DNA of 42,220 nt, from the IMG/VR virus record IMGVR_UViG_2061766007_000300. One strand, written 5' to 3'. The stretch comes from an uncultured virus (IMG/VR IMGVR_UViG_2061766007_000300) (Duplodnaviria > Heunggongvirae > Uroviricota > Caudoviricetes). Every line of letters starts with the position of its first letter. The stretch's first letter is position 1. The notes under the pieces are model-generated. The model searched no databases. It was not told where the DNA came from and worked only from the letters and a program-made list of their open reading frames with translations. Positions 231 to 42,220 of the stretch are shown here, in pieces. The position numbers were made by a program, and so were the translations under genes.

Positions 231-240
231 NNNNNNNNNN

Positions 241-7685: not shown

Positions 7686-8421
7686 GAGTGATTTCCTCCA
7701 ATCTTTCTTCAATATCTTCTAAATAAGTTATATAATATAGTTTTATATTATTTTTTTGACAATAATCAAATTTTTCTTTATCACGCCTTTGTCTTTCAAT
7801 AAAAGATTCTTCTGTATTCCAACTATCTACTCTCCATTTAAAATGAATATCACCTTGGTATTCTATTAAACCTAATAAATCATTATTTTCATTAAATAAG
7901 GCAAAATCAAATTGATAAGGTTTTGTTATACAAATAAAATCTTTAAATGAATACTCACTTTCATATTTATAATGATGGCTATTTAACCATTTAGTAATAG
8001 TTACATTGCCTACTGAATTAATACAACCACAAGATTTAGTATCTCCAAAATTTAAATATTGATGTTGTACTTCACATACATTACCACAGTCGCACTGACA
8101 TTTCCAAAGGCGTCTTCTTTTTCCGTTCGCTCCAGTAATGAAACCGGCTTCTTCTAAAACTACTAACTTACCAAATCTTAACCCTGTTAAATCTCCGCCT
8201 CTTTGTAGATTAGATTGAATTGCCCTTTCTTTTTGATAGCAACCGCAAGATTTGGTATTACCAGAGCGTAAATGTTTTCCTAATACTATAACTTCATTAC
8301 CACAATCACATTTACATTTCCACATGGCACGTCCGTCTTTACTATTCGGTGCACGCTCTATTACGGTTAAATACCCATATTTATTACCAATTTCATTTTT
8401 TAAACTAGACATATTCATCAC
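7666..8421 (-). CDS. Free-standing homing-type endonuclease (CDCG repeats plus PD-(D/E)xK-like domain)
   Basis: Two WKCxCDCG...KSCGC modules, FDFAL...IEYQG; late-promoter motif at 8428-8435; overlaps the gyrB start. Confidence 0.85.
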   Translation of the reverse strand: MMNMSSLKNEIGNKYGYLTVIERAPNSKDGRAMWKCKCDCGNEVIVLGKHLRSGNTKSCGCYQKERAIQSNLQRGGDLTGLRFGKLVVLEEAGFITGANGKRRRLWKCQCDCGNVCEVQHQYLNFGDTKSCGCINSVGNVTITKWLNSHHYKYESEYSFKDFICITKPYQFDFALFNENNDLLGLIEYQGDIHFKWRVDSWNTEESFIERQRRDKEKFDYCQKNNIKLYYITYLEDIEERLEEITRELYGE

Positions 8422-29961: not shown

Positions 29962-30166
29962 GTATTTCCTCCTTTTTTAAATGGACATCAAGTCTTAAAA
30001 TTTCTTCGGTTTCTGCATCCCTTTCATAATCAACGCGATAGATTGTCCATTTTTTACTAAGTAATTCTAAAATTTTCTCATTTTGGATTTCTATTTCTGT
30101 AATAGTATCTTTTGGAAGATAAGTAGTATAATATAAAGTATGCCCTTTAGTTCCATTTTTCATCAT
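29942..30166 (-). CDS. Hypothetical protein
   Basis: 74-aa ORF with AGGAG RBS. Confidence 0.6.
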   Translation of the reverse strand: MMKNGTKGHTLYYTTYLPKDTITEIEIQNEKILELLSKKWTIYRVDYERDAETEEILRLDVHLKKEEIRENIPD

Positions 30167-30173
30167 TATATAT

Positions 30174-30401
30174 TTATCTCCTAAGTTCTACTAATTGTAT
30201 ACTATCTAATTTTTGTTTTAAGTGATGCGCGGCTTCTTCGTTCCAAGCATTATAGGATTCTATTGTCATTAGAGCTTCGGTTAAATCGGCTATAAGTTTA
30301 TCCTAGCACTTAGGGTATAGGCGCGCCTAGTATGGACAATTATCGCAAGGCTAGTTATTATCTGTACATCGTAAACCTATATCAATTAACTTCTCATACA
30401 T
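30174..30401 (-). CDS. Small Cys-rich hypothetical protein, code 15
   Basis: 76 codons; C...CDNCPY...C. Confidence 0.55.
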
Positions 30402-30862
30402 TCGGCGGCACCTCGTTTTGCGAGTTTATCTACTAATTCATTTTGTTCAATTCCTTGATGACCGGCGCATTTAATAAACATAATATCGAAGTCGTCGAAA
30501 TATGGAATTAAAATTTCCCATAAATCTTTATTAGCAACGGGCTTTTTACTACTATTTACCCATCCGTTATTCTTCCAATTTTTATACCAGCCTTCATTAT
30601 AGCAGTTTATAAGATATGCGCTGTCGCTAATTATATGAATACATTTCGTTTTTCCGTAGAAGGCGCGCGCCGCTTCAATTCCTTTAATAGCGGCCATAAG
30701 TTCCATTCGATTATTAGTAGTTCCGGCTTCTCCACCATAACCACTCACAACGGCACCTTCTAAATCAAGAAACATATAGGCCCATCCACCGCGCGCCTTA
30801 GATGTCCCATTTGCGCTCGTCGCACCATCAGTATAAACTTCAATAAAATCTTTCTTACTCAT
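30386..30862 (-). CDS. rnhA: Ribonuclease HI
   Basis: YTDG, TTNNRMEL, SDSAY, W..NGW...PVANKDLW, GH...NELVDKLA. Confidence 0.95.
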   Translation of the reverse strand: MSKKDFIEVYTDGATSANGTSKARGGWAYMFLDLEGAVVSGYGGEAGTTNNRMELMAAIKGIEAARAFYGKTKCIHIISDSAYLINCYNEGWYKNWKNNGWVNSSKKPVANKDLWEILIPYFDDFDIMFIKCAGHQGIEQNELVDKLAKRGAAECMRS

Positions 30863-31229
30863 TTATATATTCCCAAACTTCTTTCCAAATTTCGTGCGGC
30901 GCGCCCTGTGCGTCTGATATATCATCTAACCACTCATTTACATGACGACCACTTTCATTATTACGCATACGACCAAATAATTTATTTTTAAATAAAGAGT
31001 TATATTCTCTTAAAATATGAATATATTGCCATAACCCACAATCTAATACTACTTTGGTTTGATGCATCTGACTTACTGTAATTGCCATTTTTATACATAT
31101 CTTAGACTCAATATTATCTGCGACACCTGTAATATAAATATTATTATTATGCCGCTGCGCTTCTCCCCACATATTAATATATAATATATTAGTAAGTAGG
31201 CTATATTTCTTCTCTAATTCTTTATCCAT
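30855..31229 (-). CDS. Hypothetical protein
   Basis: 124-aa ORF after the sigma70-type promoter at 31263-31291. Confidence 0.7.
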   Translation of the reverse strand: MDKELEKKYSLLTNILYINMWGEAQRHNNNIYITGVADNIESKICIKMAITVSQMHQTKVVLDCGLWQYIHILREYNSLFKNKLFGRMRNNESGRHVNEWLDDISDAQGAPHEIWKEVWEYINE

Positions 31230-31356
31230 AATAATATATATTCTCCTTCTAATTCTACTATAATTATACCATATTTTTAATTAAATTGCAAATTTGTAGA
31301 CTTTTTATTCTAAATCTTTACTTATATCTAGGCGAAATATTTATGGAGGTATAAAT

Positions 31357-32425
31357 ATGAAGTTTAGACGAACTATTAAATTAGGTATGTCTGGGCCAGA
31401 CGTTTTATATATAAAAAAGTAGTTATTCGCGCTTGGGATGTACGACAGTAAAATAAAACGCATTATAAGTAATAAATTTCGTGTAGATAGTGTAAATGCT
31501 ACTAAAAATTTTTAGAATACTTATGATAGTATAAATGAAGGTCCTTTAGAAGTTACTGGGACTATATATGAAGCGTGCTGGGATGCGATTGAAGCCGCGG
31601 TAAGAGGCGAAATAAAACCAAAAGATGACCCGACACCGTCTCCAGAGCCAACTCCAGAACCGACTCCTACTCCTACTCCTACGCCTAGTGGTCTTTTAGA
31701 TTCTTATACTTGGATTACTCCTTCTAAGCGAAAAGTAATAGAATAGGACTTACTAGAAACTTGTGAAATGCGGCGTAATATATGTCTTGAAATACTTAAA
31801 TATGCGTTTGACCCAGATTTACGTGCTGGGAATGATGTAAGAGCTTTATATATGTGGGGCGGCAATTTATATAATACCGATTTAAAACTTAATATTGCGA
31901 CTAAAGCTAAGATAGAAGTTGGTGCGAAGCGCTATCCAGACAAATATAATGGCGGGCGAAAAGAATGGATGTTAAGTGAGGTAGAAAAAAATCCAAATTT
32001 AGCTGCTTCTGATTGTAGTGGAATGGAAGTAGGTTGGCTTCGTAAGTTTAAATTAACTAGTAATAAATTTGACTAGAACGCAAATAGCTTGGGTAGTACT
32101 TAGTTTTCAGCTAAATGTAGTAAAGAGGAAGCTTAGCCAGGTACATTCGCGCATAGAGACGGCCATTTAGGGACTTACGTCGGCGGCGGATATATTGTTG
32201 AGTTCGTGGGCGGCGCATATGGATGTTAGTTAACTGCGCGCGACAAGCGTAAAGTATGGAATTTCGTTGAAGGTAGAACTTAGACGATGAGTGCGTGGCA
32301 AGATTATTGGAATTTTAAGGAGCTTTTAAAGTATGACAGTTANNNNNNNNNNGGGTAAAACTTAGACAATGAGCGCGTGGCAAGATTATTGGAATTTTAA
32401 GGAGCTTTTAAAGTATGACAGTTAA
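31357..32425 (+). CDS. Endolysin: peptidoglycan-binding domain, PT/PE linker, NlpC/P60 domain, code 15; 3' end duplicated across the gap at 32343-32352
   Basis: GMSGPDV..IKK(Q)LFALG; YMWGG, SDCSG, GHLGTYVGGG; multiple in-frame TAG; late motif at 31319. Confidence 0.85.
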
Positions 32426-32768
32426 AGACGATTTCATTAAAAAAGTTTTAATTTGTATGTTTGTCTTTCTTACAATTTTTACTATCGGAATGATAATTAT
32501 TTTCCTTTAGACTGGAAGTACTCCTGATACTTTGATTGTAGCAGTTTTTGGTGCTTGCATGGGAGAATATTCTATCTGCGGTATTATTAAGAGGACAAAA
32601 GAGAAAGAAAAGACTGAAAGGATGAAGGAAGGGTTTGTAGAAGACCCGGAGAAATACTTCGAAGATGAAGTAGAAGAAACTGATGTAGGCGGCACAGTAT
32701 TTGAGCCATTAAGTTCGTACTTAAGTACTGCGCATGAAGAAGATATAGAATAGGAGGCTATTGATTAA
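32415..32768 (+). CDS. Putative holin (two TM helices), code 15
   Basis: 118 codons with a TAG between the TM helices; reading through the TAG at 32751 ends in TAATG coupling to the next gene. Confidence 0.7.
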
Positions 32769-33196
32769 TGGATACTGAATTTTTGTATGATTTATTTGTA
32801 CAGTTTGCTCCTCAGATTATTGAACTTATAATTCTTGTAGTTGGTATTTTAATTGTAAATGGACTTCGTAAACAAGGTGCAAATAAAGAACAAATTGCTT
32901 TAGTGGAGGAAGCTTATGCGATTCTTTCGAGGGCGGCGCGCACAACTAACCAAGTATGGGTAGAGGCCATTAAAGAGGCCGGCGGGAAACTTTCTGAAGA
33001 GGAGGCAGCTAAGGCCAGAGCAGATACAATTAGGGTATTTAAAGAAATGATTACTGAATCTATGGTATTTGCTATTGAGAAGCTTTATGGGTCCGTTGAT
33101 AAGTGGATTGAACTGAACCTTGAGAGCGCGGTTAATGAAGTTAAAGATGTTTTTCTTGTAGCGGAAGACTATGAGATAGAAGAAGAGGGAGAATAA
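32768..33196 (+). CDS. Putative LL-H-like holin
   Basis: N-terminal TM; A..TNQVWV...K...IE..LESAVNE pattern; located in the lysis cassette. Confidence 0.7.
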   Translation: MDTEFLYDLFVQFAPQIIELIILVVGILIVNGLRKQGANKEQIALVEEAYAILSRAARTTNQVWVEAIKEAGGKLSEEEAAKARADTIRVFKEMITESMVFAIEKLYGSVDKWIELNLESAVNEVKDVFLVAEDYEIEEEGE

Positions 33197-33271
33197 ATTT
33201 TAAGGTTTTTAAAACTTGAAAATTTTATAAAATTATAGTATTTGCGTGCGGGCGCGCGTATATTTAATAGG

Positions 33272-33306
33272 AAGAGAAAGTTAGATTTTAACTTTCTCTT
33301 TTTTTA
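33272..33306 (+). terminator. Intrinsic terminator after the lysis cassette
   Basis: AAGAGAAAGTTA-loop-TAACTTTCTCTTTTTTT. Confidence 0.8.
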
Positions 33307-33340
33307 TCTTAAATCAAATTTTAAAAATTTATTTTTAATT

Positions 33341-33369
33341 TTGAAAAGCTTTAAAATTTATGCTATAAT
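33341..33369 (+). promoter_or_regulatory. Sigma70/sigmaA-type early promoter
   Basis: TTGAAA-17 bp-TATAAT with extended TG. Confidence 0.85.
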
Positions 33370-33385
33370 TATTATAGAATAAAAA

Positions 33386-33430
33386 AAGATATTTACGGCA
33401 AATATTTATGGCGCAAATAAAAAATATCTT
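33386..33430 (+). promoter_or_regulatory. Leader stem-loop carrying the AGAY..ACGGCAAAU motif
   Basis: AAGATATT/AATATCTT stem; motif shared with the elements at 37728 and 38550. Confidence 0.6.
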
Positions 33431-33445
33431 GTAGAAGGAGAATTT

Positions 33446-34933
33446 ATGAATAAGTTTACGAATGCGATTAAAGAAACTACTTCCCAGAAGCTGACGGAGA
33501 ATGGAGCCTTTGCGTATAATACTACGGAAAGTGACCTTTTGGATTTGTTTGCGGAGATTGGTGCGTTGCGCCCGAGAACTGAGGCGGAAATTACTGAAAA
33601 GTTCGAGAGAGCTTTTAAGGAAGATGCGACTCTCGCTATGCGTATGGCTTTCTATGCGCGTGACGTAAGATTCGGCGGACTCGGTGAGCGCCGGACGTTC
33701 CGTATTATCCTTAAGTGGATTTGCGAAAATTATCCGGAACTTGCTACGGCTAATATTCCGAATATTACTACTTTCGGTCGTTTCGATGACCTCTATACTT
33801 ATGTTGGTACAGAGGCAGAAGAGGCTATGTGGAAGTATATGTATACGACTCTTACAAATGACTATGAGCGTATGCTTGAGGGTAAGCCGATTTCTCTTCT
33901 TGCTAAGTGGCTGAAGTCCATTAATACCTCTAGCCGTGAATCTCGTAAGCTCGCTCGCCTTACGCTTAAGAACCTCGGCTTCCATAACGAACGCCATTAT
34001 CGTAAGGTTTTGGCTCGTATGAGGGATTACCTTAATGTAGTTGAAAATCGTATGAGCGCGCAGGAGTGGGATAAGATTAACTATTCTCAGGTTCCGGCTT
34101 ATGCGATTAAGAACTATGGTAGCGCTTTTGCAAAGCATGATTACGAGCGGTGGAACCAGTACCTTAAGGACTTGCAGAAGGGTACTACTAAGGTTAATGC
34201 GAGTACTTTGTATCCGTATGATTTGGTTCACCAGTATATGGATAAGTACTATGGTGATAGCTATGGTCCTAATACTCTTACCGAAGCCCAGTGGAAGGCT
34301 CTACCGGATTATGTGGGTGATGGTGCTAATGTAATGGTTATGGCTGATGTTAGCGGTTCGATGATGGGGCGTCCGATGGAAACTTCGATTGGTCTTGCGG
34401 CGTACTTCGCGCAGCGTAACCATGGTCCGTTTGCGGGTCTTTTCCTTACGTTTACCGACATTCCTCGGTACATCCATGTGCGGAGTGATGATAAGCTCTA
34501 TACTATGATTAATAAGATTCGTCAGAACGTCGGTTATAATACCAATTTGGATAAGGCTTTTAATCTTATTTTGGATACGGCTCTTAATAATCACGTTCCT
34601 CAAGAGGACTTACCTCGCGCGCTTGTAGTTGTCTCTGATATGGAGATTGACTCCTATGTGAGATACCATGGGTTAGATTTCGTTAAGACTTGGAGAGAGC
34701 GGTTTAAGGCGTATGGGTATGAGCTTCCTCAGCTTGTACTCTGGAATGTGGAGGCGCGCAACGATACGTTCCTTACGAAGATGGCGACTAAGGGAGTTAC
34801 TTTCCTTTCTGGTCAGAGTGCATCTACGTTCAGAAGCCTTATCGATACGTTGAACTGTAAGAGTGCGTATGAGGCAATGGTGAAGGTTCTTATGAACCCC
34901 GCCTATGACGTAGTAGTTACTAAGGTAGCATAA
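33446..34933 (+). CDS. DUF2828-family, TROVE/Ro60-like protein with C-terminal vWA domain
   Basis: TENGA, ARDVRFGGLGER, GRFDDL, LLAKWL, LYPYDLV, MIDAS DVSGSM, SDME; no in-frame TAG. Confidence 0.85.
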   Translation: MNKFTNAIKETTSQKLTENGAFAYNTTESDLLDLFAEIGALRPRTEAEITEKFERAFKEDATLAMRMAFYARDVRFGGLGERRTFRIILKWICENYPELATANIPNITTFGRFDDLYTYVGTEAEEAMWKYMYTTLTNDYERMLEGKPISLLAKWLKSINTSSRESRKLARLTLKNLGFHNERHYRKVLARMRDYLNVVENRMSAQEWDKINYSQVPAYAIKNYGSAFAKHDYERWNQYLKDLQKGTTKVNASTLYPYDLVHQYMDKYYGDSYGPNTLTEAQWKALPDYVGDGANVMVMADVSGSMMGRPMETSIGLAAYFAQRNHGPFAGLFLTFTDIPRYIHVRSDDKLYTMINKIRQNVGYNTNLDKAFNLILDTALNNHVPQEDLPRALVVVSDMEIDSYVRYHGLDFVKTWRERFKAYGYELPQLVLWNVEARNDTFLTKMATKGVTFLSGQSASTFRSLIDTLNCKSAYEAMVKVLMNPAYDVVVTKVA

Positions 34934-34938
34934 GTTAT

Positions 34939-35136
34939 ATGAAAAATCTTATTGTTCTCCATGAAGATTTTGGTAAAGAGGAGCCAATAACTTTATATAT
35001 TGACCCCTCTTTTGTAACTTATGTAAGAAAGGCTATTTTAAACGATAATACTTATATTCATTTTTCGGATGGCCATTCAATAACAGTAACGGAAAATATT
35101 AATTACGTTTATCAAAAAATTTGGGAAATTAATTAA
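34939..35136 (+). CDS. Small hypothetical protein
   Basis: 65-aa ORF in the same operon. Confidence 0.6.
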   Translation: MKNLIVLHEDFGKEEPITLYIDPSFVTYVRKAILNDNTYIHFSDGHSITVTENINYVYQKIWEIN

Positions 35137-35137
35137 T

Positions 35138-35302
35138 ATGGAAGATAAGTCTTATACTTTTTCTAATTGGGAACGAAAATTTATTAGAGATATGGTTAAT
35201 TATTTAAGGAAAAATGGAGTCCTTATTTATGACGAAAGTAATCGATATAGGGGCGCGGAGGCTATTTTGGCGGAAGTGCGCGCGAAATTTGAAAATTCTT
35301 AA
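35138..35302 (+). CDS. Small hypothetical protein
   Basis: 55 codons immediately after the previous stop. Confidence 0.5.
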   Translation: MEDKSYTFSNWERKFIRDMVNYLRKNGVLIYDESNRYRGAEAILAEVRAKFENS

Positions 35303-35317
35303 ATTTTATGATATAAT
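35289..35317 (+). promoter_or_regulatory. Sigma70-type early promoter
   Basis: TTGAAA-17-TATAAT with extended TG. Confidence 0.8.
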
Positions 35318-35348
35318 TATATTATAAGATTAAGAAAGGAATTAAAAT

Positions 35349-35657
35349 ATGGCAAATAAGCGAGCAACTTATAAAGTAGAGTTTAGTTTCGATGGATTGT
35401 CCCTTGCGGAGCAGGATAGACTTTATAGAGTCCTTGGAAGTGTTCTTTCCCAGGATTTGAAAGACCATATGAATATTAAGGTTACGGATTTGATTGGTGG
35501 CATGCATGATATTTTTTCTAATAAAGGTGTGCGGCCAGATGGTATTATTTGTGATAATTGTCCGTATGTAGATTGCGCGGACTGTAAACTTTGGAAGAAA
35601 GTAGTAGAACTAAATAAAGAGAAAGAAGAGAAGGAGAAGAATAGTTCTAATGGATAA
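35349..35657 (+). CDS. Hypothetical protein with a CxxCxxxxCxxC motif
   Basis: 102-aa ORF, AAGGA RBS. Confidence 0.7.
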   Translation: MANKRATYKVEFSFDGLSLAEQDRLYRVLGSVLSQDLKDHMNIKVTDLIGGMHDIFSNKGVRPDGIICDNCPYVDCADCKLWKKVVELNKEKEEKEKNSSNG

Positions 35658-36156
35658 TAGTTCTTATCGTTATAATGTTGACCCTGAGAAGGGTGTTACG
35701 GCTTGTATCGTAAAGCATAGAGACTTTGAAGAACTCGTTGAGGATTATGCGCTAAATAAGGTTTTTCGTATTATTGCGAATAATAAGGCGCGCCGTATTG
35801 GTTTGAATAACTTGGCACATAGTGTACTTAATAATTATGTTAAGCCTGCTATTGAGAAGGCCATTGGTGGCGGTGACGCGCATACTCTTGCTCGTTGCAA
35901 TTATGAGAAGGAAGAGGTTTTTGATGAAGAGTATGGTATGCTGTTGGCGGCCCGTCGTATGGATTTGCTGGTTGCTCGGACGGCATTGAGCGTACTGGAT
36001 ACGTGGCTTCAGGATATTGAGTTTATTGAAACCGCTATTGGTGAGCGTGGATATAATATTGAGAATTATATGTTCGCGCTGAAGCGAGATTTGAAGGAAC
36101 TTACTATGGACCCCGTAGAAGAAGAAGTTTCTGATTGCGGAAGTTGTGAGATTTAA
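35650..36156 (+). CDS. Hypothetical phage protein
   Basis: 168 aa; ARC...FDEEYG.LLA..R motif. Confidence 0.75.
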   Translation: MDNSSYRYNVDPEKGVTACIVKHRDFEELVEDYALNKVFRIIANNKARRIGLNNLAHSVLNNYVKPAIEKAIGGGDAHTLARCNYEKEEVFDEEYGMLLAARRMDLLVARTALSVLDTWLQDIEFIETAIGERGYNIENYMFALKRDLKELTMDPVEEEVSDCGSCEI

Positions 36157-36199
36157 ATAAAATTTTAGAGCGGCCGCCCTCTAAGTAGGCGGCATATAT

Positions 36200-36334
36200 G
36201 GGGGCGTGGTGGAATCGGCAGACACAACGGACTTAACGGTATGAGGCAAACCGTAGTAGGGTTATCACCTACCATATCGACCAAATCCGTTTTGCTTTAC
36301 GCGAGTGTGGGTTCAAGTCCCACCGCCCCTACCA
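36200..36334 (+). tRNA. tRNA-Leu(UAA) interrupted by a 47-nt tRNA-like insert (36237-36283)
   Basis: Class II cloverleaf, anticodon stem ACGGA/TCCGT, loop CTTAA|AA after removal, GTTCAAGT T-loop, ACCA end. Confidence 0.85.
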
Positions 36335-36505
36335 TTTAATTTGGATACGCATAGGCTTGGGTAAGAGGACCCTATAAGTAGTTGATAGTGGAACAATAAC
36401 CTATACGTAATATCACTAGTTCGAATTTTAAAATTCGTACCATTTTTTTATATTCGTATTATAATTAATTTACTTATAATTAGAGAAAATAAAGGAGAAT
36501 TTTTT

Positions 36506-37486
36506 ATGATAGGAATATATAAAATAACAAATAAAGTTAATGGAAAAAGTTATATTGGTTAGTCTGTTGATATAATGGATAGATGGAAATCTCATAGAAA
36601 TAAACCATTTAACTAGAATAGTAAAGATTATGACTCTCTTTTTTATAGGGCAATTCGTAAATATGGGTTAGAAAATTTTGACTTTGAAATAATAGAAGAA
36701 TGTAAAAAAGAAGAATTAAATGAAAAAGAAAGATATTGGATAAAATTTTATCATACCTATGCTGGTGATATTGATAATAACGGTTACAATTTAACTTTGG
36801 GTGGAGAAACAAATGCAGTAACGCAGCAATAGATAGATAATGCAGAAGAAATAAAACAATTATTATTAACTACTCAAATAACTTAGGTAGAAATAGGTAA
36901 AAAATTTGGCTTAAGTCATGCTTCAGTTAGTTATATTAATAATGGAAGAGCTTGGCATGATGATAATTTAATTTATCCATTGAGAGAGCCCGTTGGAGTT
37001 ACTCCTAAGGAAATTAGAGAAAAAGAATGTTTTTGTGTTGATTGTGGAAAATAGATAACTAATAAAGCTAAACGTTGTTATGAATGTAATTTATTATATT
37101 TAAAAGAAAAGAACCGAAAATAGCCTCCGGTCACAAGGGATGAATTAGAAAAACTTCTTTTACAAAATAATGGTAATTTTGTAGAAGTAGGTAAAGTTTT
37201 TAATTTAACAGATAATGCTATTCGTAAATGGTGTGACAAGTTCGGTCTATCAAGACATTCTAATGATTATAAAGAGAAAAAAGAAAAACCTAAGAAATCT
37301 TTTGAAATTAAAAAAGTTATAATGTTAGATATTAACACCGGAGAAGAGTTAAAAGAATTTGCTAATTCAGAATAGGCAGGCGCGTATCTAGGAAAAACTT
37401 CTGGCACGCATATTCGAGAAGCGGCCGCAGGAAAAAGAAAAACTGCATATGGATATAAATGGAAATTTAAAAATGTGGCGGAGTAA
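36506..37486 (+). CDS. GIY-YIG homing endonuclease with NUMOD-like C-terminus, code 15
   Basis: MIGIYKITNKVNGKSYIG(Q)S; GYNLTLGG; TAYGYKWKF; 327 codons; late motif at 36471. Confidence 0.88.
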
Positions 37487-37551
37487 CTCAAAAGGAGAGT
37501 GCCATCTTTACACGGTGGAAGTTGAGATTGCAAAATTCTCCTCCGCTACCA
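37477..37551 (+). tRNA. tRNA-Val(UAC)
   Basis: CCATC-TTTACAC-GGTGG anticodon arm; ACCA end; atypical T-loop. Confidence 0.82.
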
Positions 37552-37644
37552 GGGGAGCGAGAGAAGCTAGCTTATTAGTACCATATGCTACGATAAGTTG
37601 GTGAAACAATAGTCTAGATGATATCTCGTAAGAACTCCCTACCA
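37552..37644 (+). ncRNA. CCA-terminated structured RNA that is not a cloverleaf
   Basis: GGGGAG/CTCCCT-ACCA acceptor-like stem; CGAGA/TCTCG and CTTAT/ATAAG inner stems. Confidence 0.55.
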
Positions 37645-37645
37645 A

Positions 37646-37719
37646 TGGGACCTAGTATAAAGGTAGTACTTCTGTCTCCAAAACAGAAAGTCTCCGTTCG
37701 AGTCGGAGGGTTCCGGCCA
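37646..37719 (+). tRNA. tRNA-Trp(CCA)
   Basis: TCTGT-CTCCAAA-ACAGA; TTCGAGT T-loop; GCCA end. Confidence 0.9.
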
Positions 37720-37727
37720 TTAATTTT

Positions 37728-37836
37728 TAGACGCGTGAACAGCGAATTTAGGATGAATAGCTTAACGGTTTAAGCATCTATTATTTAATAGAAGACTGTC
37801 GGTTCAAATCCGGCTTTACCCGCACATTTGCGTCTA
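37728..37836 (+). ncRNA. Y-RNA-like element enclosing a degenerate tRNA cloverleaf
   Basis: TAGACGCG/TGCGTCTA closing stem, ACAGCGAAT motif, inner D arm and GGTTCAAATCC T arm, 6-nt anticodon loop, no CCA. Confidence 0.65.
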
Positions 37837-37854
37837 GTATATAAGGAGAATTCT

Positions 37855-38031
37855 ATGGAAAGTAATAATATAGAATTTGTAAATTTAAATCTTTATTACG
37901 AAAAACTTAAAGAGTGCGAGTAGTGCGCGCTCTTTTATTTAGAATGTAGAGGGCCTACGGTTATAGAACCATTTTGCCCTAAACAGAATGGATTTATTCC
38001 TATATAGGGAGTAATAGAATAGGGATTTTAA
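37855..38031 (+). CDS. Small Cys-containing hypothetical protein, code 15
   Basis: AAGGAG RBS; 59 codons. Confidence 0.5.
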
Positions 38032-38050
38032 AATTTAGGATTTTTAAATC

Positions 38051-38079
38051 TTGAAATTTTTTTAAAATTCTGATATAAT
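38051..38079 (+). promoter_or_regulatory. Sigma70-type early promoter
   Basis: TTGAAA-17-TATAAT with extended TG. Confidence 0.82.
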
Positions 38080-38109
38080 ATTTATAGAAAGTTAAGAGAA
38101 AAACTTTTT

Positions 38110-38316
38110 GAGCTGGCCAGCACCGCGCTGCAGAAAGCTCGTTAAACACGGGGCTGCGGTAAAGCGTTAACACGAGGTTTTATGGTTTGAACTAGGGTAT
38201 TTTACCCCATGCGGAAAACGCTATAGAAAGAAGCGAAGGGAAACCATAAACTGGATACAGACCCAGTATAAAAAGGTGTCGCGCTAATAGACCGCAAGTT
38301 CGCAATAGTCTATTAC
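38110..38316 (+). ncRNA. Unassigned GC-rich structured RNA
   Basis: Follows a promoter, no credible ORF; stems GAGCT/AGCTC, TTTATGGTTT/AAACCATAAA, TAATAGAC/GTCTATTA. Confidence 0.5.
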
Positions 38317-38318
38317 TT

Positions 38319-38481
38319 GGGAATGTAGCTCAGCCCGGTAGAGCCCGCGCCTGTAGTAAATTGGTGTAATAGCGCACATTGGGGCCGGTGATTCGTTCAC
38401 AGTCCCGAAGGAACAAGTGCAATTCTTGTATTTACTTCCATAAGCGCGTTGTCGTAGGATCGAAGCCTACCGTTCCCGCCA
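38319..38481 (+). tRNA. tRNA-Asn(GUU) interrupted by an 86-nt nested tRNA-like insert (38355-38440)
   Basis: GGGAATG/CGTTCCC-G-CCA; stem CGCGC/GCGCG; loop CTGT|TAA after removal; G73 fits Asn. Confidence 0.8.
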
Positions 38482-38549
38482 TAGGGCGCTCGCATTTATT
38501 GGTCTCTTTGATTTGCGCCCATTCATAAAAGAGCAAATGTAGACCACAA

Positions 38550-38673
38550 TAGATACGTACAGCAAATATATTCATTCGATCTGCAAAATCGCGTGTCGTG
38601 GGTTCAAATCCCATCGGAACTTTCGAGTTCTGTAACTCAGTCTGGTAGAGTAGTATATGAAAAAACGTATCTA
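38550..38673 (+). ncRNA. YrlA/Y-RNA-like RNA containing a circularly permuted tRNA (GCA anticodon-like arm)
   Basis: TAGATACG/CGTATCTA stem, ACAGCAAAT; order anticodon arm, T arm, acceptor stem closed by TTCG, D arm. Confidence 0.75.
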
Positions 38674-38808
38674 GAAAATTTTATAGGGAGTAGAGTAACG
38701 GCACCCCTAATTAATAGACTTATCACCTATTTAATTAAAGGCTCTAATATTATAAGTAGTATGGAGTGATAACCAGAACAATGTAATATTATCCATACCG
38801 TGAAACCT

Positions 38809-38886
38809 CGGGATGTAGGGTAAGAGGCAACCCGCCTGTTTTGGGGACAGGAGATTTTGCTACTTCGAGTGTAGTCGTCCCGACCA
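38809..38886 (+). tRNA. tRNA-Pro(UGG)
   Basis: CGGGATG/CGTCCCG-ACCA; CCTGT-TTTGGGG-ACAGG. Confidence 0.9.
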
Positions 38887-38979
38887 ATTTGGAACCCAAG
38901 ACTATAATTATGACTAAATTATTATAGTCTATTTTATTATTTTTTACTTATAATTAGAGAAAAATAAAGGAGAAAAATT

Positions 38980-39561
38980 ATGAGTAAAAAATTAACTAAT
39001 GAAGAAGTATAGTTACGTATAAAGGAATATTTTTTATAGGATGTGAAATTAGTTTCTGATTATAAAAATAATAAAACTAATATAAGATTACATTGTAACG
39101 AGTGTGGATACGAATGGGAAACGAGGCCGACTTAGGTGATTTATCCAGATTATGAACACTCTTGTCCTAATTGCAAGTTTGAAAGTACTGGGATAATAGT
39201 AACTTGTGCTTATTGTGGAAAAGAAATAAGAAGAACTAACCACGCAATAAATAAAAATTAGAGCGGTTATTATTATTGTAGTCGTGAATGTGGTAATCGA
39301 CATAAAAATATGCTTCGTAAGCAAAGTGGTGAATGGGACCAGTCTTTAAATTATCGACTACGCGCATTTGAAAATTTAGAACACAGGTGCGTTGTTTGTG
39401 GATGGGATGAGGATGAAAGAATTTTGGAAGTCCATCATAAAGATGAGGATAGAGCTAATAATGATTTATCTAATTTAGTAATTTTATGTCCGACCTGTCA
39501 TAGAAAAATTACTTTAGGTTATTATTTGTTAACTGAAGATTATCAGTTAATAGAGAAATAA
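38980..39561 (+). CDS. HNH endonuclease with N-terminal Zn ribbons, code 15
   Basis: 194 codons; CVVCG...LEVHHKD..RANN...NLVILCPTCH; late motif at 38945. Confidence 0.85.
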
Positions 39562-39573
39562 AGGATAAAATTT

Positions 39574-40020
39574 ATGCCTCAATCAAAAATAAATGTTAAA
39601 GAACTTAGAAAATTAAAAGGAACTAAATGTTGTAATTGTGGTGATGAATGCGGTGATAATATTATTTTTCATCATATTATACCTATAAGTATAGGTGGGA
39701 ATGATATTGAAAGTAATATTGTACCATTATGTACTTTATGCCATAATTTATTACATGGAATTAGCAAAGATGGAAAAATTTCTCATTCAGAATTAACCAA
39801 AAGAGGAATTGAACGTGCAAGAGCCGAAGGAAAACAGATTGGTGGCGTTAAGGGTTCAACTTATAATGTGAAGAAAAAGGAAAAAGCTATAGAAATAATT
39901 AAAAAATATTCTATTACTTTTGGTGGTCCTTTAAATAATTTAGAATGTATGCAAATGGCAGACATTTCTAACGGAACTTTTTATAAATATCTTAGAGAAT
40001 TAAAAAAGGATTAGAAATAA
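39574..40020 (+). CDS. HNH endonuclease with resolvase-like C-terminal HTH
   Basis: HHIIPISIGG...NIVPLCTLCHNLLH; TKRGIERARAEGK; ends at TAA after TAG readthrough. Confidence 0.82.
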
Positions 40021-40080
40021 TCGTACTAAAAACTCCTAAACCTTTGCGGGTAGTATAGGCTAAATCCGCCTCCTTTTTAT

Positions 40081-40156
40081 GCGCCCGTAGCTCAGTGGAT
40101 AGAGCAAGGGCCTTCTAAGCCCTGTGTCGTGCGTTCGAGTCGCACCGGGCGTGCCA
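40081..40156 (+). tRNA. tRNA-Arg(UCU)
   Basis: Canonical cloverleaf, AGGGC-CTTCTAA-GCCCT, GCCA end. Confidence 0.95.
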
Positions 40157-40188
40157 ACGTATTAAAAGAAAGGATATAGGATATTTAT

Positions 40189-40275
40189 GGGTAGATATGC
40201 CTAGTAGCGAGGGCCCGTGACTGTAAATCACGTACACAAGAAACATCGATGGTGCAATTCCATCTCTGCCCACCA
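40189..40275 (+). tRNA. tRNA-Tyr(GUA)
   Basis: CGTGA-CTGTAAA-TCACG, long variable arm, ACCA end. Confidence 0.9.
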
Positions 40276-40344
40276 TTAGTAAATAGTAAACTAAAAAGTG
40301 TCTGAACAAAAGCCAAATAGAGTGAGGTTTATTATTTACTCTTT

Positions 40345-40415
40345 CCGCTATTCGTATAACAGTAGTACGTCAGGCCTCCAACCTGAGAGCGCGAGGGCGG
40401 CACTCGCATGGCGGT
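40345..40415 (+). tRNA. Atypical tRNA-Gly(UCC) lacking encoded CCA
   Basis: CCGCTAT/ATGGCGG-T; TCAGG-CCTCCAA-CCTGA; C33 and T-loop GGCGGCA are non-canonical. Confidence 0.65.
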
Positions 40416-40416
40416 C

Positions 40417-40466
40417 GGTTACAAGAACCAGCCTTCTCGTGGCGTAACTGTTTTAACTAATGGTTC
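40417..40466 (+). ncRNA. Minimal HDV-like (theta) ribozyme
   Basis: P1 GGTTAC/GTAACT with G1-U wobble, P2 GAACCA/TGGTTC, P3 GCC/GGC, L3 TTCTCGT, C-TAA before P2'. Confidence 0.78.
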
Positions 40467-40550
40467 AAATTTTTAAAAATGGTCCAAATTTTTATACTCT
40501 TTTTATTATTTTTTTACTTATAATTAGAAGAAAATAATAAGGAGTTTTTT

Positions 40551-41294
40551 ATGATAGGAATTTATAAAATAGAGAACTTAGTAAATCATAAATTATATGT
40601 TGGGCAAAGTATTGACATAGAAGAAAGATATAAATAGCATATTTATAAAGCTTTTAATAATAATGAACGAGCATACAATTCAGCAATTCACCAAGCTTTT
40701 AGAAAATATGGAATCGAAAATTTTAAATTAGAAGTGATTGAATAGTGTAATATTGATGAATTAGATGAAAAAGAGATATATTGGATTAAATAGTTAGATA
40801 CTATTTCTCCTAATGGATATAATATATCATTAGGCGGCCAATTTAATAAAGCTTCTAATAAAAGATTTTGTCCCTTATGCGGTGAAGTTATGACTAAAGG
40901 AGCAGATTTGTGCTTAAATTGCTATTTAAAAGAAAAGTCTAAACATCTACCAAGCGCTGAAGAATTAAAAGAAAAATTAATAGAATATAATGGTAATTTT
41001 ACTCAAGTTGGTAAATTATATGGCGTAATAGATAATTCAGTTAGAAAGTGGTGTAAAAAATACGGTATGCCGTATCATAGTAGCGATTATAAAGTAAAGC
41101 CACAAAAAAAACCAAATAAAATTCCAGTAGATTAGTTAGATCCAAATACCGGAGATATAATCCAAACTTTTGAAAGTGCTAATGCTGCTGCGCACTCTTT
41201 GGGGAAAAACCGTGGTAGTCATATAACAGAAGCATGTCAAGGAAAATTTAATATTATTTATGGATATAGATGGTAGTATCATAAAGATTTTTAA
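40551..41294 (+). CDS. GIY-YIG homing endonuclease, code 15
   Basis: MIGIYKIENLVNHKLYVGQS; PNGYNISLGG; 248 codons; late motif at 40515. Confidence 0.88.
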
Positions 41295-41296
41295 TT

Positions 41297-41325
41297 TTGA
41301 CTTTTTCTTAAATTTTTGGTATAAT
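41297..41325 (+). promoter_or_regulatory. Sigma70-type early promoter
   Basis: TTGACT-17-TATAAT with extended TG. Confidence 0.82.
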
Positions 41326-41358
41326 ATATATAGAAAATGAGAAAGGGATAAAAAAAAT

Positions 41359-41547
41359 ATGGCTAAAAGATTTCCTGAAGTTGGCGATGCAATCCATATT
41401 TATCATATGTTCGGAGAGTCTGAATATAATGATACAGAAGGTGTTGTAACTCGTATCGATGATATGGGACAAATTCACGGGACTTGGGGCGGTCTTGCTC
41501 TTGTACCTGGTGATGATTACGAAATCATCGAAGAAGATGAACTATAA
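41359..41547 (+). CDS. DUF4314-like small protein
   Basis: GD.I....M.GE...EGVV..IDDMGQIHGTWGGLALVPGDD. Confidence 0.7.
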   Translation: MAKRFPEVGDAIHIYHMFGESEYNDTEGVVTRIDDMGQIHGTWGGLALVPGDDYEIIEEDEL

Positions 41548-41584
41548 TATATATATAGAAAGTTAAGAGAAAGGGAAAAGTAAT

Positions 41585-41818
41585 ATGAGTCATTACTATA
41601 CTAAAGAGAAGTCTTACGAAGAAGAACTCGAATGGTATCGTAGTCGCATAGAGTTTTATCGTGCGCGGTGGGATAAGTGTTGTAGGCTCGATAAAGAGTA
41701 TTGTAACTATCTTGAGCGCTGGTTTAGTAATGATAGGTGTGATGGTGCGCCGGACTACGAAACAAGAGTTTTGTGGAAGCGTTTGCCGATGGCTTATAAT
41801 ACTTATTGCTTTGAATAA
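41585..41818 (+). CDS. Hypothetical protein
   Basis: 77-aa ORF with AAGGG RBS. Confidence 0.6.
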   Translation: MSHYYTKEKSYEEELEWYRSRIEFYRARWDKCCRLDKEYCNYLERWFSNDRCDGAPDYETRVLWKRLPMAYNTYCFE

Positions 41819-41822
41819 TTTT

Positions 41823-41911
41823 GGCTTCGTGGCTGAGAGGTCGATAGCGGCGCCCTGCTAAGGCGTTGAAGGCTTTGCTTTCCGGTAGTTCGAATCTACC
41901 CGAAGTCGCCA
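41823..41911 (+). tRNA. tRNA-Ser(GCU)
   Basis: GCGCC-CTGCTAA-GGCGT, long variable arm, GCCA end. Confidence 0.93.
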
Positions 41912-41913
41912 AT

Positions 41914-41988
41914 GGTCCCTTCGTCTAATGGCAAGGACGCAAGATTTTCATTCTTGCAATATGGGTTCGACTCCCGTAGGGGCTACCA
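41914..41988 (+). tRNA. tRNA-Glu(UUC)
   Basis: CAAGA-TTTTCAT-TCTTG, ACCA end. Confidence 0.93.
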
Positions 41989-41996
41989 TAATTTAT

Positions 41997-42072
41997 GCCA
42001 AAGTAGCTCAGTTGGTAGAGCAGCGCACTTGTAATGCGCAGGTCAAGAGTCCGAGTCTCTTCTTTGGCTCCA
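41997..42072 (+). tRNA. tRNA-Thr(UGU)
   Basis: GCGCA-CTTGTAA-TGCGC, TCCA end. Confidence 0.93.
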
Positions 42073-42220
42073 AAGTCTGCGGGACTATAAGCCGCTACCA
42101 GGACTATAAGAAATTATAGGTTGGTACTTCCTTAGATAAGATAATAAACTAAGGCGGTCGCGTCGAAACAGCGTATAGTATGGGTGAGCTTATTTAACTA
42201 TTTTGGGAACGATTAATAGT

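What the first reader, a model, noticed from the sequence alone, without database searches (positions are those of the whole stretch)
38319..38481. A tRNA inside a tRNA: the tRNA-Asn anticodon is split by a complete CCA-ending tRNA mimic
Seen: the 86-nt insert 38355-38440 folds as its own cloverleaf, with acceptor AGTAAAT/ATTTACT, discriminator T plus CCA, D arm GTGT/GCAC, an expanded anticodon arm TTGGG/CCCGA with an internal hairpin, and T arm ACAAG-TGCAATT-CTTGT. Removing exactly this unit (its +1 through CCA) joins CTGT and TAA into the canonical Asn loop CUGUUAA, and the outer G73 fits Asn. Known: group I tRNA introns are much longer and end in G; this insert ends in CCA. Inference: a previously undescribed intron class excised by tRNA-processing nucleases (RNase P at the 5' side, a cut after CCA) followed by ligation (RtcB-like). 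It could shield the gene from anticodon-targeting endonucleases or integration, or time tRNA maturation.
Basis: partly seen in the sequence, partly recalled or inferred. Interest (0 to 1): 0.95.

Follow-up and report, generated by a model that had tools for sequence, protein, structure and literature searches.

The report
tRNA-shaped CCA-ended intron in phage tRNA
A rumen phage's asparagine tRNA gene is split inside its anticodon by an 86-base insert that is itself shaped like a small tRNA ending in CCA, one member of a mobile family that may be cut out by the cell's ordinary tRNA-trimming enzymes.

Summary
Window 38319-38481 is a tRNA-Asn(GUU) gene with an 86-nt insert (38355-38440) exactly between anticodon nucleotides 35 and 36. 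A close relative (L024) carries the same gene without the insert, loop CTGTTAA.

The insert has a 7-bp acceptor stem, D-like and anticodon-like stems, a T arm, a discriminator and CCA, flush with both junctions.

It is not a one-off. I found the same design in 19 phage contigs:
- A second case lies in this window: tRNA-Leu(UAA), 47-nt unit at 36237-36283.
- The host genes are tRNA-Asn, Leu, Thr and Gln, at loop positions 32/33, 34/35, 35/36 and 36/37.
- Removing the unit from its +1 through its last three bases always leaves a canonical 7-nt loop; one unit ends CTA instead of CCA.

The stems covary: 12 of 21 and 9 of 12 pairs change on both sides.

Splicing itself is not shown. RNA contigs show only the unspliced form.

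The best reading is RNase P cleavage at the 5' junction, a cut just after CCA, then sealing by an ATP-dependent RNA ligase. RtcB does not fit these ends.

The idea is not wholly new. Devoto et al. 2019 reported 'enigmatic' Lak-phage tRNA introns, one of which may encode a tRNA. This scan also noted other small phage tRNA inserts on other DNA.

The parts
38319..38354 (+). 5' exon of tRNA-Asn(GUU), nucleotides 1-35 (acceptor, D arm, 5' anticodon stem CGCGC, loop CTGT)
   Evidence: Sequence; ARAGORN -i; intron-less allele L024 1842-1918
38355..38440 (+). 86-nt tRNA-shaped intron/insert: acceptor 38355-61 with 38430-36, D-like stem 38364-67 with 38374-77, anticodon-like stem 38379-83 with 38404-08 around a 20-nt loop, T arm 38413-29, discriminator 38437, CCA 38438-40
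   Evidence: Sequence; descriptor scan; covariation with L036 and L031 units; 0 of 20,000 shuffles; weak Rfam tRNA alignment, 11.7 bits
38441..38481 (+). 3' exon of tRNA-Asn(GUU): loop TAA, stem GCGCG, variable loop, T arm, acceptor 3' strand, G73, encoded CCA
36200..36334 (+). tRNA-Leu(UAA), class II, carrying the second tRNA-shaped intron of the window
   Evidence: Rfam tRNA 44.1 bits with a 50-nt loop insertion. ARAGORN -i miscalls it SeC(tca). Intron-less syntenic Leu(TAA) in L036 has loop CTTAAAA
36237..36283 (+). 47-nt mini unit: 7-bp acceptor CGGTATG/CATATCG, 12-nt linker, T arm GTAGG-GTTATCA-CCTAC, discriminator A, CCA. Removal leaves CTTAA+AA (position 36/37; 35/36 cannot be excluded from sequence alone)
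   Evidence: Descriptor scan; minimum-energy fold equals the model; covariation with four other 47-nt units; model R1 52 bits
38552..38672 (+). Context: Y-RNA-like (YrlA-type) element with a tRNA-like module, closed by the stem GATACGT/ACGTATC
   Evidence: Rfam RF02553 36.5 bits, below the gathering score of 69, at 38590-38659. Conserved in L024. RNA contig covers 38554-38704 with 0 mismatches. The closing stem was read by eye
33446..34933 (+). Context: DUF2828/vWA 'RNA-binding' protein gene next to the tRNA array. It served as the anchor to find related phages
   Evidence: phrog_850 E 1.4e-124; PF11443, PF25043; 31 related IMG/VR loci

Best explanation
The 86 nt at 38355-38440 are a member of a mobile family of tRNA-shaped introns that sit in the anticodon loops of tRNA genes of TAG-recoded gut and rumen phages.

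Each unit is an RNase P-type substrate: a 7-bp acceptor stem stacked on a 5-bp T arm, with or without D-like and anticodon-like arms, followed by a discriminator and CCA. Each unit begins and ends exactly at the exon junctions.

Most likely route (inferred):
1. Host RNase P cuts at the unit's +1 (38354/38355). This leaves a 3'-OH on the 5' exon.
2. An endonuclease cuts immediately after CCA (38440/38441). This leaves a 5'-phosphate on the 3' exon.
3. The two tRNA halves stay held together by the acceptor and anticodon stems.
4. An ATP-dependent RNA ligase of the T4 Rnl type, from the phage or the host, seals the nick in the loop.
5. The products are tRNA-Asn(GUU) and a free 86-nt tRNA-like RNA.

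I read the element mainly as a selfish intron. It is tolerated because housekeeping tRNA enzymes remove it cleanly.
For: Shown:
- Precise insertion relative to an intron-less allele in a syntenic close relative, with a compensating exon change.
- The same flush design in every tRNA-like insert I parsed:
  - window Asn, 35/36
  - window Leu, 36/37
  - L031 Thr, 34/35
  - L036/L037 Thr, 34/35
  - L050-type and L056-type Leu, 32/33
  - L062 and L065-type Gln, 35/36
  - L026 Gln, 34/35
- The leftover is always a canonical 7-nt loop with U33 and A37. It matches synteny: Ser-Glu-Thr is conserved in the window, L036 and L031.
- The junction position varies while the unit's ends do not. The intron's own shape therefore defines the cut sites.
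- The window unit is 58 of 87 columns identical to the L036 unit, which sits in a different tRNA (Thr). Acceptor and T stems are rebuilt by compensating changes: 6 of 7 and 4 of 5 pairs. Mini units: 9 of 12 pairs change on both sides and 100% of cells pair.
- L062's outer tRNA has no encoded CCA, but its intron does. The CCA therefore belongs to the intron.
- A covariance model of the mini units found copies only inside tRNA loops in 706,183 nt.

Precedent for the steps:
- RNase Z of methanogens cuts just after an encoded CCA and needs only the acceptor stem (PMC7479834, abstract).
- Acceptor/T-arm minihelices with NCCA are sufficient RNase P substrates, and T4 Rnl1 seals anticodon-loop nicks (both recalled, not from a call).

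Ligases:
- RtcB was found in 0 of 5 intron-bearing contigs.
- Rnl1-type (PF09511) was found in 2 of 5.
- RNA_ligase (PF09414) was found in 4 of 5. One is a 417-aa protein with an OB fold plus the RNA_ligase domain in the closest relative.
Against: - No spliced RNA was seen. In four metatranscriptome runs, the only contig over the gene (X18, 151 nt, depth 3) covers 38318-38425 unspliced, and it may be DNA carry-over. No joint across 38355-38440 was reported. Contigs cannot show absence.
- No RNA ligase, RtcB or kinase/phosphatase was found among the 51 window ORFs scanned. No whole genome is held for the window.
- PF09414 ligases are as common in relatives without intron calls near the anchor gene, 4 of 5. 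The ligase link is therefore not discriminating. PF09511 at 2 of 5 against 0 of 5 is too few to weigh.
- The nucleotides after CCA (U, A, G, G, U, U, G) share no nuclease consensus.
- The L026 unit ends ACTA, not NCCA.
- The folds are not unusually stable (z from -0.3 to -2.5). The window unit's acceptor stem is not in its minimum-energy fold.
- Lak-phage introns have about 25-30 extra nucleotides between the 5' junction and their tRNA-like part, and no CCA. RNase P alone cannot explain that variant.
Confidence: 0.45

Rival explanations
1. The intron is spliced, but by other machinery. Candidates are a dedicated phage (or host) endonuclease that recognises the tRNA-like shape, or chemistry giving 2',3'-cyclic phosphate and 5'-OH ends that host RtcB joins. 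The tRNA shape would then serve as a recognition handle, not as an RNase P substrate.
For: The 3' cut has no assigned enzyme, and the nucleotides after CCA share no consensus. Lak introns cannot be explained by RNase P alone. Many window ORFs have no family match. Bacterial hosts often have RtcB: the control genomes ring in 10 of 14.
Against: No known nuclease family measures both ends of a tRNA-like unit in this way. The conserved NCCA and the 7+5-bp stack are exactly the RNase P determinants (recalled). RtcB was found in 0 of 5 phage contigs.
Confidence: 0.2
2. The unit is excised but the exons are not rejoined. On this reading the gene is a production cassette for the small CCA-ended tRNA-like RNA (a decoy or competitor for tRNA-binding enzymes or defence nucleases). 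The outer tRNA is only a folding and processing scaffold.
For: The phage also carries other tRNA mimics: a YrlA-like RNA at 38590-38659 beside a DUF2828 protein gene. Free-standing tRNA-like genes with the same unusual T arm exist in other viral contigs (L073, L077). The stems of the inner unit are under selection.
Against: In every case the leftover loop is exactly 7 nt, with the anticodon expected from synteny and intact exon stems. This includes compensating exon changes between the intron-bearing and intron-less alleles. A mere scaffold would not need that. These are the only Asn and Leu(UAA) genes in the window's array.
Confidence: 0.15
3. It is a dead insertion. A selfish DNA element derived from a tRNA-like gene has landed in the anticodon loop and inactivated the tRNA, and nothing is spliced.
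For: Presence or absence is polymorphic among close relatives: Asn, Thr and Leu each occur with and without a unit. The window is crowded with homing endonuclease genes. Only the unspliced form was seen in RNA contigs. One unit has a degraded CCA (L026).
Against: Compensating changes keep the inner stems paired across diverged copies. The outer tRNAs stay canonical in 19 contigs. The same tRNA(UAA) loop position is occupied in two very different tRNA bodies (L050 class I-sized, L056 class II). Units are never found off-register by even one base.
Confidence: 0.15
4. The RNA works unspliced, as a two-domain tRNA mimic.
For: Earlier notes of this scan describe phage tRNA mimics with remodelled anticodon arms. 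I did not check them here.
Against: The exact 7-nt leftover and the intron-less alleles argue that the outer gene is an ordinary decoder.
Confidence: 0.05

Closest known systems
'Enigmatic' tRNA introns of Lak megaphages (Devoto et al. 2019, PMC6784885; passages read, Table S6)
   Same: Both are short non-group-I inserts in the anticodon loops of tRNAs of TAG-recoded gut phages, and intron-less variants exist. The Lak Thr(TGT) intron was reported as possibly encoding a tRNA. By eye, all four printed Lak introns end in an acceptor-like stem plus T arm. The Lak 'Tyr(GTA)' host gene looks class I with G73, so it may be Asn split at 35/36 like this one (my inference, not tested).
   Different: Lak units have a 5' hairpin and an A/T-rich spacer before the tRNA-like part. 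They stop at or just after a discriminator, without CCA. Here the unit is flush at both ends and ends in NCCA. No mechanism, family rule or covariation was given in the parts of the paper that I read.
Group I self-splicing introns in bacterial and phage tRNA anticodon loops (e.g. tRNA-Leu(UAA))
   Same: Location in the anticodon loop; mobility; patchy presence among relatives.
   Different: The units are 47-87 nt and have no P3-P9 core. There is no Rfam group I match. The 3' end is CCA, not G.
Archaeal and eukaryal bulge-helix-bulge tRNA introns (splicing endonuclease plus RtcB or Trl1)
   Same: Protein-dependent excision defined by RNA shape; variable positions in some archaea; exon halves are rejoined by a ligase.
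   Different: No bulge-helix-bulge is present. The two junctions face each other across an internal loop (4 nt against 7 nt) between the outer anticodon stem and the inner acceptor stem. The array has a bacterial-type class II tRNA-Tyr. The predicted end chemistry is the opposite one.
tRNA-like processing signals cut by RNase P and RNase Z (mitochondrial tRNA punctuation; MALAT1 mascRNA) - recalled, not from a call
   Same: A tRNA-shaped element embedded in a longer RNA marks where housekeeping tRNA nucleases cut.
   Different: Those systems release flanking RNAs and never rejoin them. Here the flanks are the two halves of another tRNA and must be ligated.
Phage T4 anticodon-loop break and repair (PrrC nuclease, Pnkp, Rnl1) - recalled
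   Same: A nick in a tRNA anticodon loop is sealed by a phage ATP-dependent RNA ligase. Rnl1-type genes occur in 2 of 5 intron-bearing relatives.
   Different: That is repair after an attack by the host, not removal of an encoded insert.
YrlA-type Y RNAs (Rfam RF02553)
   Same: tRNA-like modules in phage non-coding RNA. One lies 110 nt downstream of this gene.
   Different: It is a free-standing RNA with a permuted tRNA-like domain. It is not an intron and does not end in CCA.

Membership tests
Group I intron | Conserved catalytic core (P3-P9), usually 200 nt or more, recognised by Rfam Intron_gpI | tested here: not met
   The insert is 86 nt. There was no group I match at the gathering score, at E<=1 on 35500-42220, or at E<=10 on the insert alone.
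Group I intron | 3'-terminal G of the intron | tested here: not met
   The insert ends in CCA. The junction is fixed by the intron-less allele.
Bulge-helix-bulge (archaeal/eukaryal) tRNA intron | Two 3-nt bulges holding the splice sites, separated by a 4-bp helix | tested here: not met
   By inspection, the 5' site abuts the first pair of a 7-bp helix. The 3' site lies 4 nt after that helix. No staggered 4-bp helix is present.
Bulge-helix-bulge (archaeal/eukaryal) tRNA intron | Host with a splicing endonuclease (archaeon or eukaryote) | tested here: inconclusive
   The host is unknown. The class II tRNA-Tyr at 40189-40272 and the phage gene content point to a bacterial host.
Lak-type phage tRNA intron (Devoto 2019) | Short insert in a phage tRNA anticodon loop that contains a tRNA-like acceptor/T-arm module, with intron-less variants | tested here: met
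   compared by eye with Table S6.
Lak-type phage tRNA intron (Devoto 2019) | 5' hairpin plus A/T-rich spacer before the tRNA-like module; no CCA at the 3' end | tested here: not met
   The window unit starts at its acceptor +1 and ends in TCCA. The Lak sequences were read.
Lak-type phage tRNA intron (Devoto 2019) | Sequence homology to Lak introns | not tested
   Sequences from the paper were not entered into any tool.
tRNA (Rfam RF00005), for the inner unit | Score at or above the gathering threshold of 29 bits; 7-nt anticodon loop | tested here: not met
   Score 11.7 bits, E 5.2 over 4227 families. The anticodon-like loop is 20 nt. ARAGORN does not call it a gene.
RNase P substrate (bacterial) | 12-bp acceptor/T-stem stack, single-stranded 5' leader, 3' NCCA | tested here: met
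   7+5 bp, a leader of loop nucleotides, and NCCA in 7 of the 8 units tabulated. The L065-type (9th) unit also ends ACCA or GCCA.
RNase P substrate (bacterial) | Actual cleavage at +1 | not testable with these tools
   Needs an in vitro or in vivo assay.
Spliced intron (any class) | Ligated exons detectable in RNA | tested here: inconclusive
   Four RNA runs were laid. Only an unspliced contig was seen, and no joint. Contigs cannot show absence.

The most novel reading that the evidence does not exclude
These units are a further class of intron whose splice sites are nothing but the mature 5' and 3' ends of an embedded tRNA mimic. Universal tRNA-maturation nucleases (RNase P and a cut after CCA) do the cutting, and an RNA ligase does the joining. 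The reverse reaction, ligation of the free 5'-phosphate/CCA-3'-OH unit into a nicked anticodon loop, would explain how they hop precisely between different tRNAs and loop positions.
Probability: 0.35. Interest if true: 0.93.

Novelty: new variant of a known kind. Interest (0 to 1): 0.85.

Why it matters
If these units are spliced as proposed, bacteria and their phages have a protein- and RNase P-dependent tRNA splicing route. That route would be distinct from group I self-splicing and from the archaeal and eukaryal endonuclease route.

The route would be built entirely from housekeeping enzymes, and it is directly testable with a 163-nt transcript. It would also explain the 'enigmatic' Lak-phage introns, open since 2019, at least in part.

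There is a practical point too. Gene finders misread these genes:
- ARAGORN calls the Asn gene Tyr.
- It calls the Leu gene SeC(tca).
- It calls the two Thr genes Trp and Arg.
- It calls a Gln gene Glu.

Such calls can mislead inference of suppressor tRNAs and genetic codes in recoded phages.

The design, a self-delimiting cargo RNA released from a tRNA scaffold, is also of interest for RNA engineering.

Tried and rejected
Searches that found nothing or did not help:
- No match of 38280-38500 in 50,697 GenBank phage records (blastn). For 30000-42220, megablast gave only short tRNA-sized matches.
- Exact-pattern scans of IMG/VR with the 5' exon, two intron pieces and a degenerate 'Asn body + CTGTA' pattern all gave 0 hits.
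- In 185,579 species genomes, 20 matches to the T-arm + CCA pattern had 0 of 20 with an acceptor stem. All looked like coding-sequence coincidences.
- No whole genome is held for the window. Metagenome records could not be searched as whole records.

Readings rejected:
- ARAGORN's Tyr(gta) 37/38 reading: the gene is class I with G73, the array already has a class II Tyr(GTA), and the intron-less allele reads GTT.
- Met/Ile (CAT) or Ile (GAT) junctions, for the same reason.
- A known ribozyme or other Rfam family in the insert: only ToxI at 15.9 bits (E 0.66) and tRNA at 11.7 bits.

Inconclusive:
- RNA support. Four runs held small shares. No part of 38426-38481 was covered except at depth about 1, and no joint was seen. 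This says nothing either way.
- A high-depth X18 contig ends at 36236 and runs on as an intron-less Leu-like loop with a different stem. I read it as another organism's tRNA, not as a splice product.
- Ligase co-occurrence is not discriminating.
- Thermodynamic stability z-scores are weak.
- The long insert in L024's tRNA-Leu has no group I match at E<=1, and the contig is cut.

Literature: seven full-text searches and two look-ups in recoding and crAss papers found no description of CCA-ended tRNA-shaped introns or of RNase P-defined splicing. Only Devoto 2019 comes close. Its figures are not held, and bioRxiv supplements are closed.
Full report
WHAT THE WINDOW IS. The 42,220-base window is part of a phage genome. 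It carries topoisomerase II subunits, a helicase, a DNA ligase, tail-fibre-like proteins and many GIY-YIG and HNH homing endonuclease genes (Pfam). TAG is read as a sense codon: for example, the GIY-YIG ORF at 36506-37486 has 7 in-frame TAG. Sequencing runs that hold it are bovine, goat or other gut metagenomes. From 36200 to 42072 lies a + strand tRNA array. No whole genome is held for the window.

THE OBSERVATION.
- The outer gene at 38319-38481 has a 7-bp acceptor stem, a D arm, the anticodon stem CGCGC/GCGCG, a T arm, G73 and an encoded CCA.
- Between CTGT and TAA lie 86 nt (38355-38440). They comprise acceptor AGTAAAT/ATTTACT, D-like stem GTGT/GCAC, a 5-bp stem TTGGG/CCCGA around a 20-nt loop, T arm ACAAG-TGCAATT-CTTGT, a discriminator T and CCA.
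- Default ARAGORN and Rfam miss the gene. ARAGORN with introns allowed finds it but calls it Tyr(gta) with an intron at 37/38.

THE JUNCTION. A scan of metagenome contigs for the gene's 3' half returned L024, a 2,589-nt contig.
- L024 has the same gene order (Val, Trp, an odd tRNA, Asn, the Y-RNA-like element, Pro, Arg, Tyr) and an uninterrupted tRNA-Asn(GTT).
- Its anticodon arm is identical to the window's joined exons: CGCGC-CTGTTAA-GCGCG.
- The two genes differ at 3 of 77 positions. Two of these are the compensating acceptor pair 5:69, A-T to G-C.
- Only an insertion between nucleotides 35 and 36 reproduces that loop.
- The alternative loops (Tyr GTA, Ile GAT, Met/Ile CAT) are excluded. 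The array already has a bacterial-type class II tRNA-Tyr(GTA) at 40189-40272.
- Other intron-less homologues with the same unusual T arm are in L020/L028/L031, L022, L026, L019/L029 and L025.

IT IS A FAMILY. The tRNA-Leu(UAA) gene of the same window (36200-36334) has a 47-nt insert (36237-36283). ARAGORN calls this gene SeC(tca).
- The insert is a 7-bp acceptor (CGGTATG/CATATCG), a 12-nt linker, a T arm (GTAGG-GTTATCA-CCTAC), a discriminator A and CCA. Its removal leaves CTTAAAA.
- I used the neighbouring DUF2828 protein gene as an anchor and fetched 31 related IMG/VR loci.
- ARAGORN made 367 tRNA calls in 29 of them, 19 of these with an intron.
- Ten of the 19 hold a flush tRNA-shaped unit. 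The other nine are three kinds of call in L044/L047/L061. One is a 31-nt hairpin insert of a different type; the other two I did not resolve.
- Further units came from L031, L026 and a scan for a shared T arm.

THE UNITS FOUND. In all, 19 contigs carry such units:

| Unit | Locus | Host tRNA | Loop position | Length |
|---|---|---|---|---|
| A | window | Asn | 35/36 | 86 nt |
| B | window | Leu | 36/37 | 47 nt |
| C | L026 | Gln | 34/35 | 75 nt, ends ACTA |
| D | L031 | Thr | 34/35 | 72 nt |
| E | L036/L037 | Thr | 34/35 | 87 nt |
| F | L050/51/52/59 | tRNA(UAA) | 32/33 | 47 nt |
| G | L056/57/58/L091 | Leu(UAA) | 32/33 | 47 nt |
| H | L062 | Gln | 35/36 | 51 nt |
| I | L065/71/85/92/95 | Gln | 35/36 | 49-50 nt |

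- In every case, deleting the unit from its +1 through its last three bases leaves a 7-nt loop with U33 and A37 (unit I by eye).
- The anticodon read this way fits synteny. Ser(GCT)-Glu(TTC)-Thr is conserved. The Thr gene is intron-less in the window but carries E in L036/L037 and D in L031. L036 has an intron-less Leu(TAA) with loop CTTAAAA.

IS IT MORE THAN CHANCE?
- None of 20,000 dinucleotide shuffles of each of seven units keeps the flush acceptor, abutting T arm and CCA.
- A descriptor scan of 747,710 nt gave 45 hits. Thirteen are the nested units. The other 32 are ordinary tRNAs whose flanks happen to pair.
- Unit A is 58 of 87 columns identical to unit E, which sits in a different tRNA.
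- On the A/E/D alignment, 96.7% of cells pair and 12 of 21 pairs change on both sides (acceptor 6 of 7, T stem 4 of 5). With the partners slid, 1-3 pairs do so.
- On five 47-nt units, 100% of cells pair and 9 of 12 pairs change on both sides, against 0-1 when slid.
- These members were first picked by ARAGORN's outer-tRNA calls, not by their inner pairing. The numbers of sequences are small, however, and I derived the structures from the sequences themselves.
- A covariance model of the mini units, searched over 706,183 nt, found only the known copies plus unit H (25.6 bits, E 0.004), all inside tRNA loops.
- Six viral contigs carry free-standing tRNA-like genes with the same odd T arm, ATTGG-GGCAGTA-CCAAT. 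These are possible relatives or parents of the units.
- None of 20 matches in bacterial and archaeal genomes is such a unit.

EVIDENCE THAT WEAKENS THE STRUCTURAL CASE.
- Rfam's tRNA model gives unit A only 11.7 bits and unit D 13.7 bits.
- The minimum-energy fold of unit A alone uses a competing hairpin instead of the A/U-rich acceptor stem. The fold of the whole precursor mispairs the anticodon stem.
- z-scores run from -0.3 to -2.5. B, F and H fold exactly as modelled.

HOW IT MOST LIKELY WORKS. What is shown:
- The junctions coincide with the mature ends of a tRNA-like unit, whichever loop position is occupied.
- The features under selection are those that bacterial RNase P reads: a 12-bp acceptor/T stack and a 3' NCCA (recalled enzymology).
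- L062's outer tRNA lacks an encoded CCA while its intron has one.

From this I infer the following route.
1. RNase P cuts at +1.
2. A second endonucleolytic cut falls right after CCA.
   - Some RNase Z enzymes cut just after an encoded CCA and need only the acceptor stem (PMC7479834, abstract).
3. Both enzymes leave a 3'-OH and a 5'-phosphate. The nicked anticodon loop would therefore need an ATP-dependent ligase of the T4 Rnl kind, not RtcB.

Gene searches agree with this, but weakly:
- RtcB: 0 of 5 intron-bearing contigs.
- Rnl1-type: 2 of 5, against 0 of 5 relatives without intron calls near the anchor.
- PF09414 ligases: 4 of 5 in both sets. One is a 417-aa protein with an OB fold plus the RNA_ligase domain in the closest relative.
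- The window itself shows no RNA ligase among the 51 ORFs scanned.

WHAT IS NOT SHOWN. Splicing itself is not shown. Of four metatranscriptome runs laid on 36150-40300, one (X18) has a 151-nt contig. It matches 38318-38425 without a mismatch, that is the 5' exon running on into the intron. Its further 43 nt are unlike the window upstream, so a variant phage carries the same allele. No joint over the intron was reported, and coverage of 38426-38481 is almost nil. This may be precursor RNA or DNA carry-over, and it is no evidence against splicing.

RIVAL READINGS. These are splicing by unknown machinery, excision without rejoining (a cassette for a tRNA-like decoy), a dead insertion, and an unspliced mimic. 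They are weighed in their own sections of this report. Two facts speak most strongly for a functioning outer tRNA: the exact 7-nt leftover loops, and the maintained exon and intron pairing across diverged copies.

COMPARISON WITH WHAT IS KNOWN.
- The unit is not a group I intron. It is too small, has no core, has no Rfam match and ends in A.
- It is not a bulge-helix-bulge intron. The junctions face each other across a 4-by-7-nt internal loop.
- The nearest thing in print is Devoto et al. 2019. They write that Lak phage tRNAs have 'highly conserved introns', and that a tRNA-Thr(TGT) intron 'itself may encode a tRNA', with intron-less variants.
- In their Table S6, all four intron types end, by my eye, in an acceptor-like stem plus T arm. 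They have a 5' hairpin and spacer and no CCA.
- Their 'Tyr(GTA)' host gene looks like a class I, G73 tRNA. It may really be Asn split at 35/36, as here. This is my inference and was not tested.
- Seven full-text searches and two look-ups found no paper that states the flush-end rule, the CCA, the mini form, the mobility among tRNAs or an RNase P-based route.
- Earlier notes of this scan describe other small phage tRNA inserts (rod-shaped, hairpin) on other DNA. They gave me the lead to the Devoto paper.

VERDICT. It is wrong on the ligase chemistry and overstated on novelty. I rate the find as a new variant of a barely described kind, of high interest because it makes a new splicing route directly testable.

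Noticed in passing
window 36200-36334 (unit 36237-36283): A second tRNA of the window, Leu(UAA), carries a 47-nt acceptor/T-arm/ACCA mini unit in its anticodon loop. ARAGORN miscalls the gene SeC(tca), which could be mistaken for a TGA suppressor.
   Followed up: yes
window 38552-38672; gene 33446-34933: A Y-RNA-like (YrlA-type) element lies 110 nt downstream of the Asn gene: Rfam RF02553 36.5 bits, below the gathering score. It is conserved in L024 and covered by an RNA contig without a mismatch. A DUF2828/vWA 'RNA-binding' protein gene lies just upstream of the array.
   Followed up: partly
window 37751-37823; L024 803-875: A tRNA-shaped gene with a 6-nt anticodon loop: ARAGORN 'tRNA-???(tt)', Rfam tRNA 46.6 bits. 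Its counterpart in L024 has a different loop and is called Phe(aaa).
   Followed up: no
window 38260-38315: A 52-56-nt piece just upstream of the Asn gene occurs in several RNA contigs of three runs, at depth up to 29, with unlike sequence on both sides. It contains an 8-bp inverted repeat (TAATAGAC/GTCTATTA). There is no Rfam match at E<=5. The stretch 38100-38175 is conserved with L024 and looks non-coding.
   Followed up: partly
L024 1-330: In this close relative the 3' half of the tRNA-Leu(UAA) gene is preceded by at least 270 nt of unrelated sequence (the contig is cut), where the window has the 47-nt unit. This is a different, longer insert, with no group I match at E<=1.
   Followed up: partly
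L044/L047/L061 8567-8671: A U73 tRNA with a CTTCC..AA loop (Gly(UCC)-like) holds a 31-nt hairpin insert that is not tRNA-shaped. A second kind of small insert therefore occurs in the same group of phages.
   Followed up: no
L073, L088, L104; L077, L078, L112; L067: Free-standing tRNA-like genes with the unusual T arm ATTGG-GGCAGTA-CCAAT that ARAGORN does not call. L073 has two in tandem with Gln-like loops. L067 lacks CCA.
   Followed up: no
window 5029-7712: The topoisomerase II large-subunit ORF (6210-7712) stops short, and a GIY-YIG endonuclease ORF (5029-6054) follows. This looks like an intron- or endonuclease-split gene. The window holds at least five GIY-YIG and several HNH endonuclease ORFs.
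   Followed up: no
L036 12569-12645; L031 10807-10880: Relatives carry a tRNA with anticodon CTA (ARAGORN 'Pyl'), the expected TAG suppressor. None lies in the window's part of the array.
   Followed up: no
window 231-240, 5311-5320, 26381-26390, 32343-32352: Four runs of ten N interrupt ORFs (masked bases or scaffold gaps).
   Followed up: no
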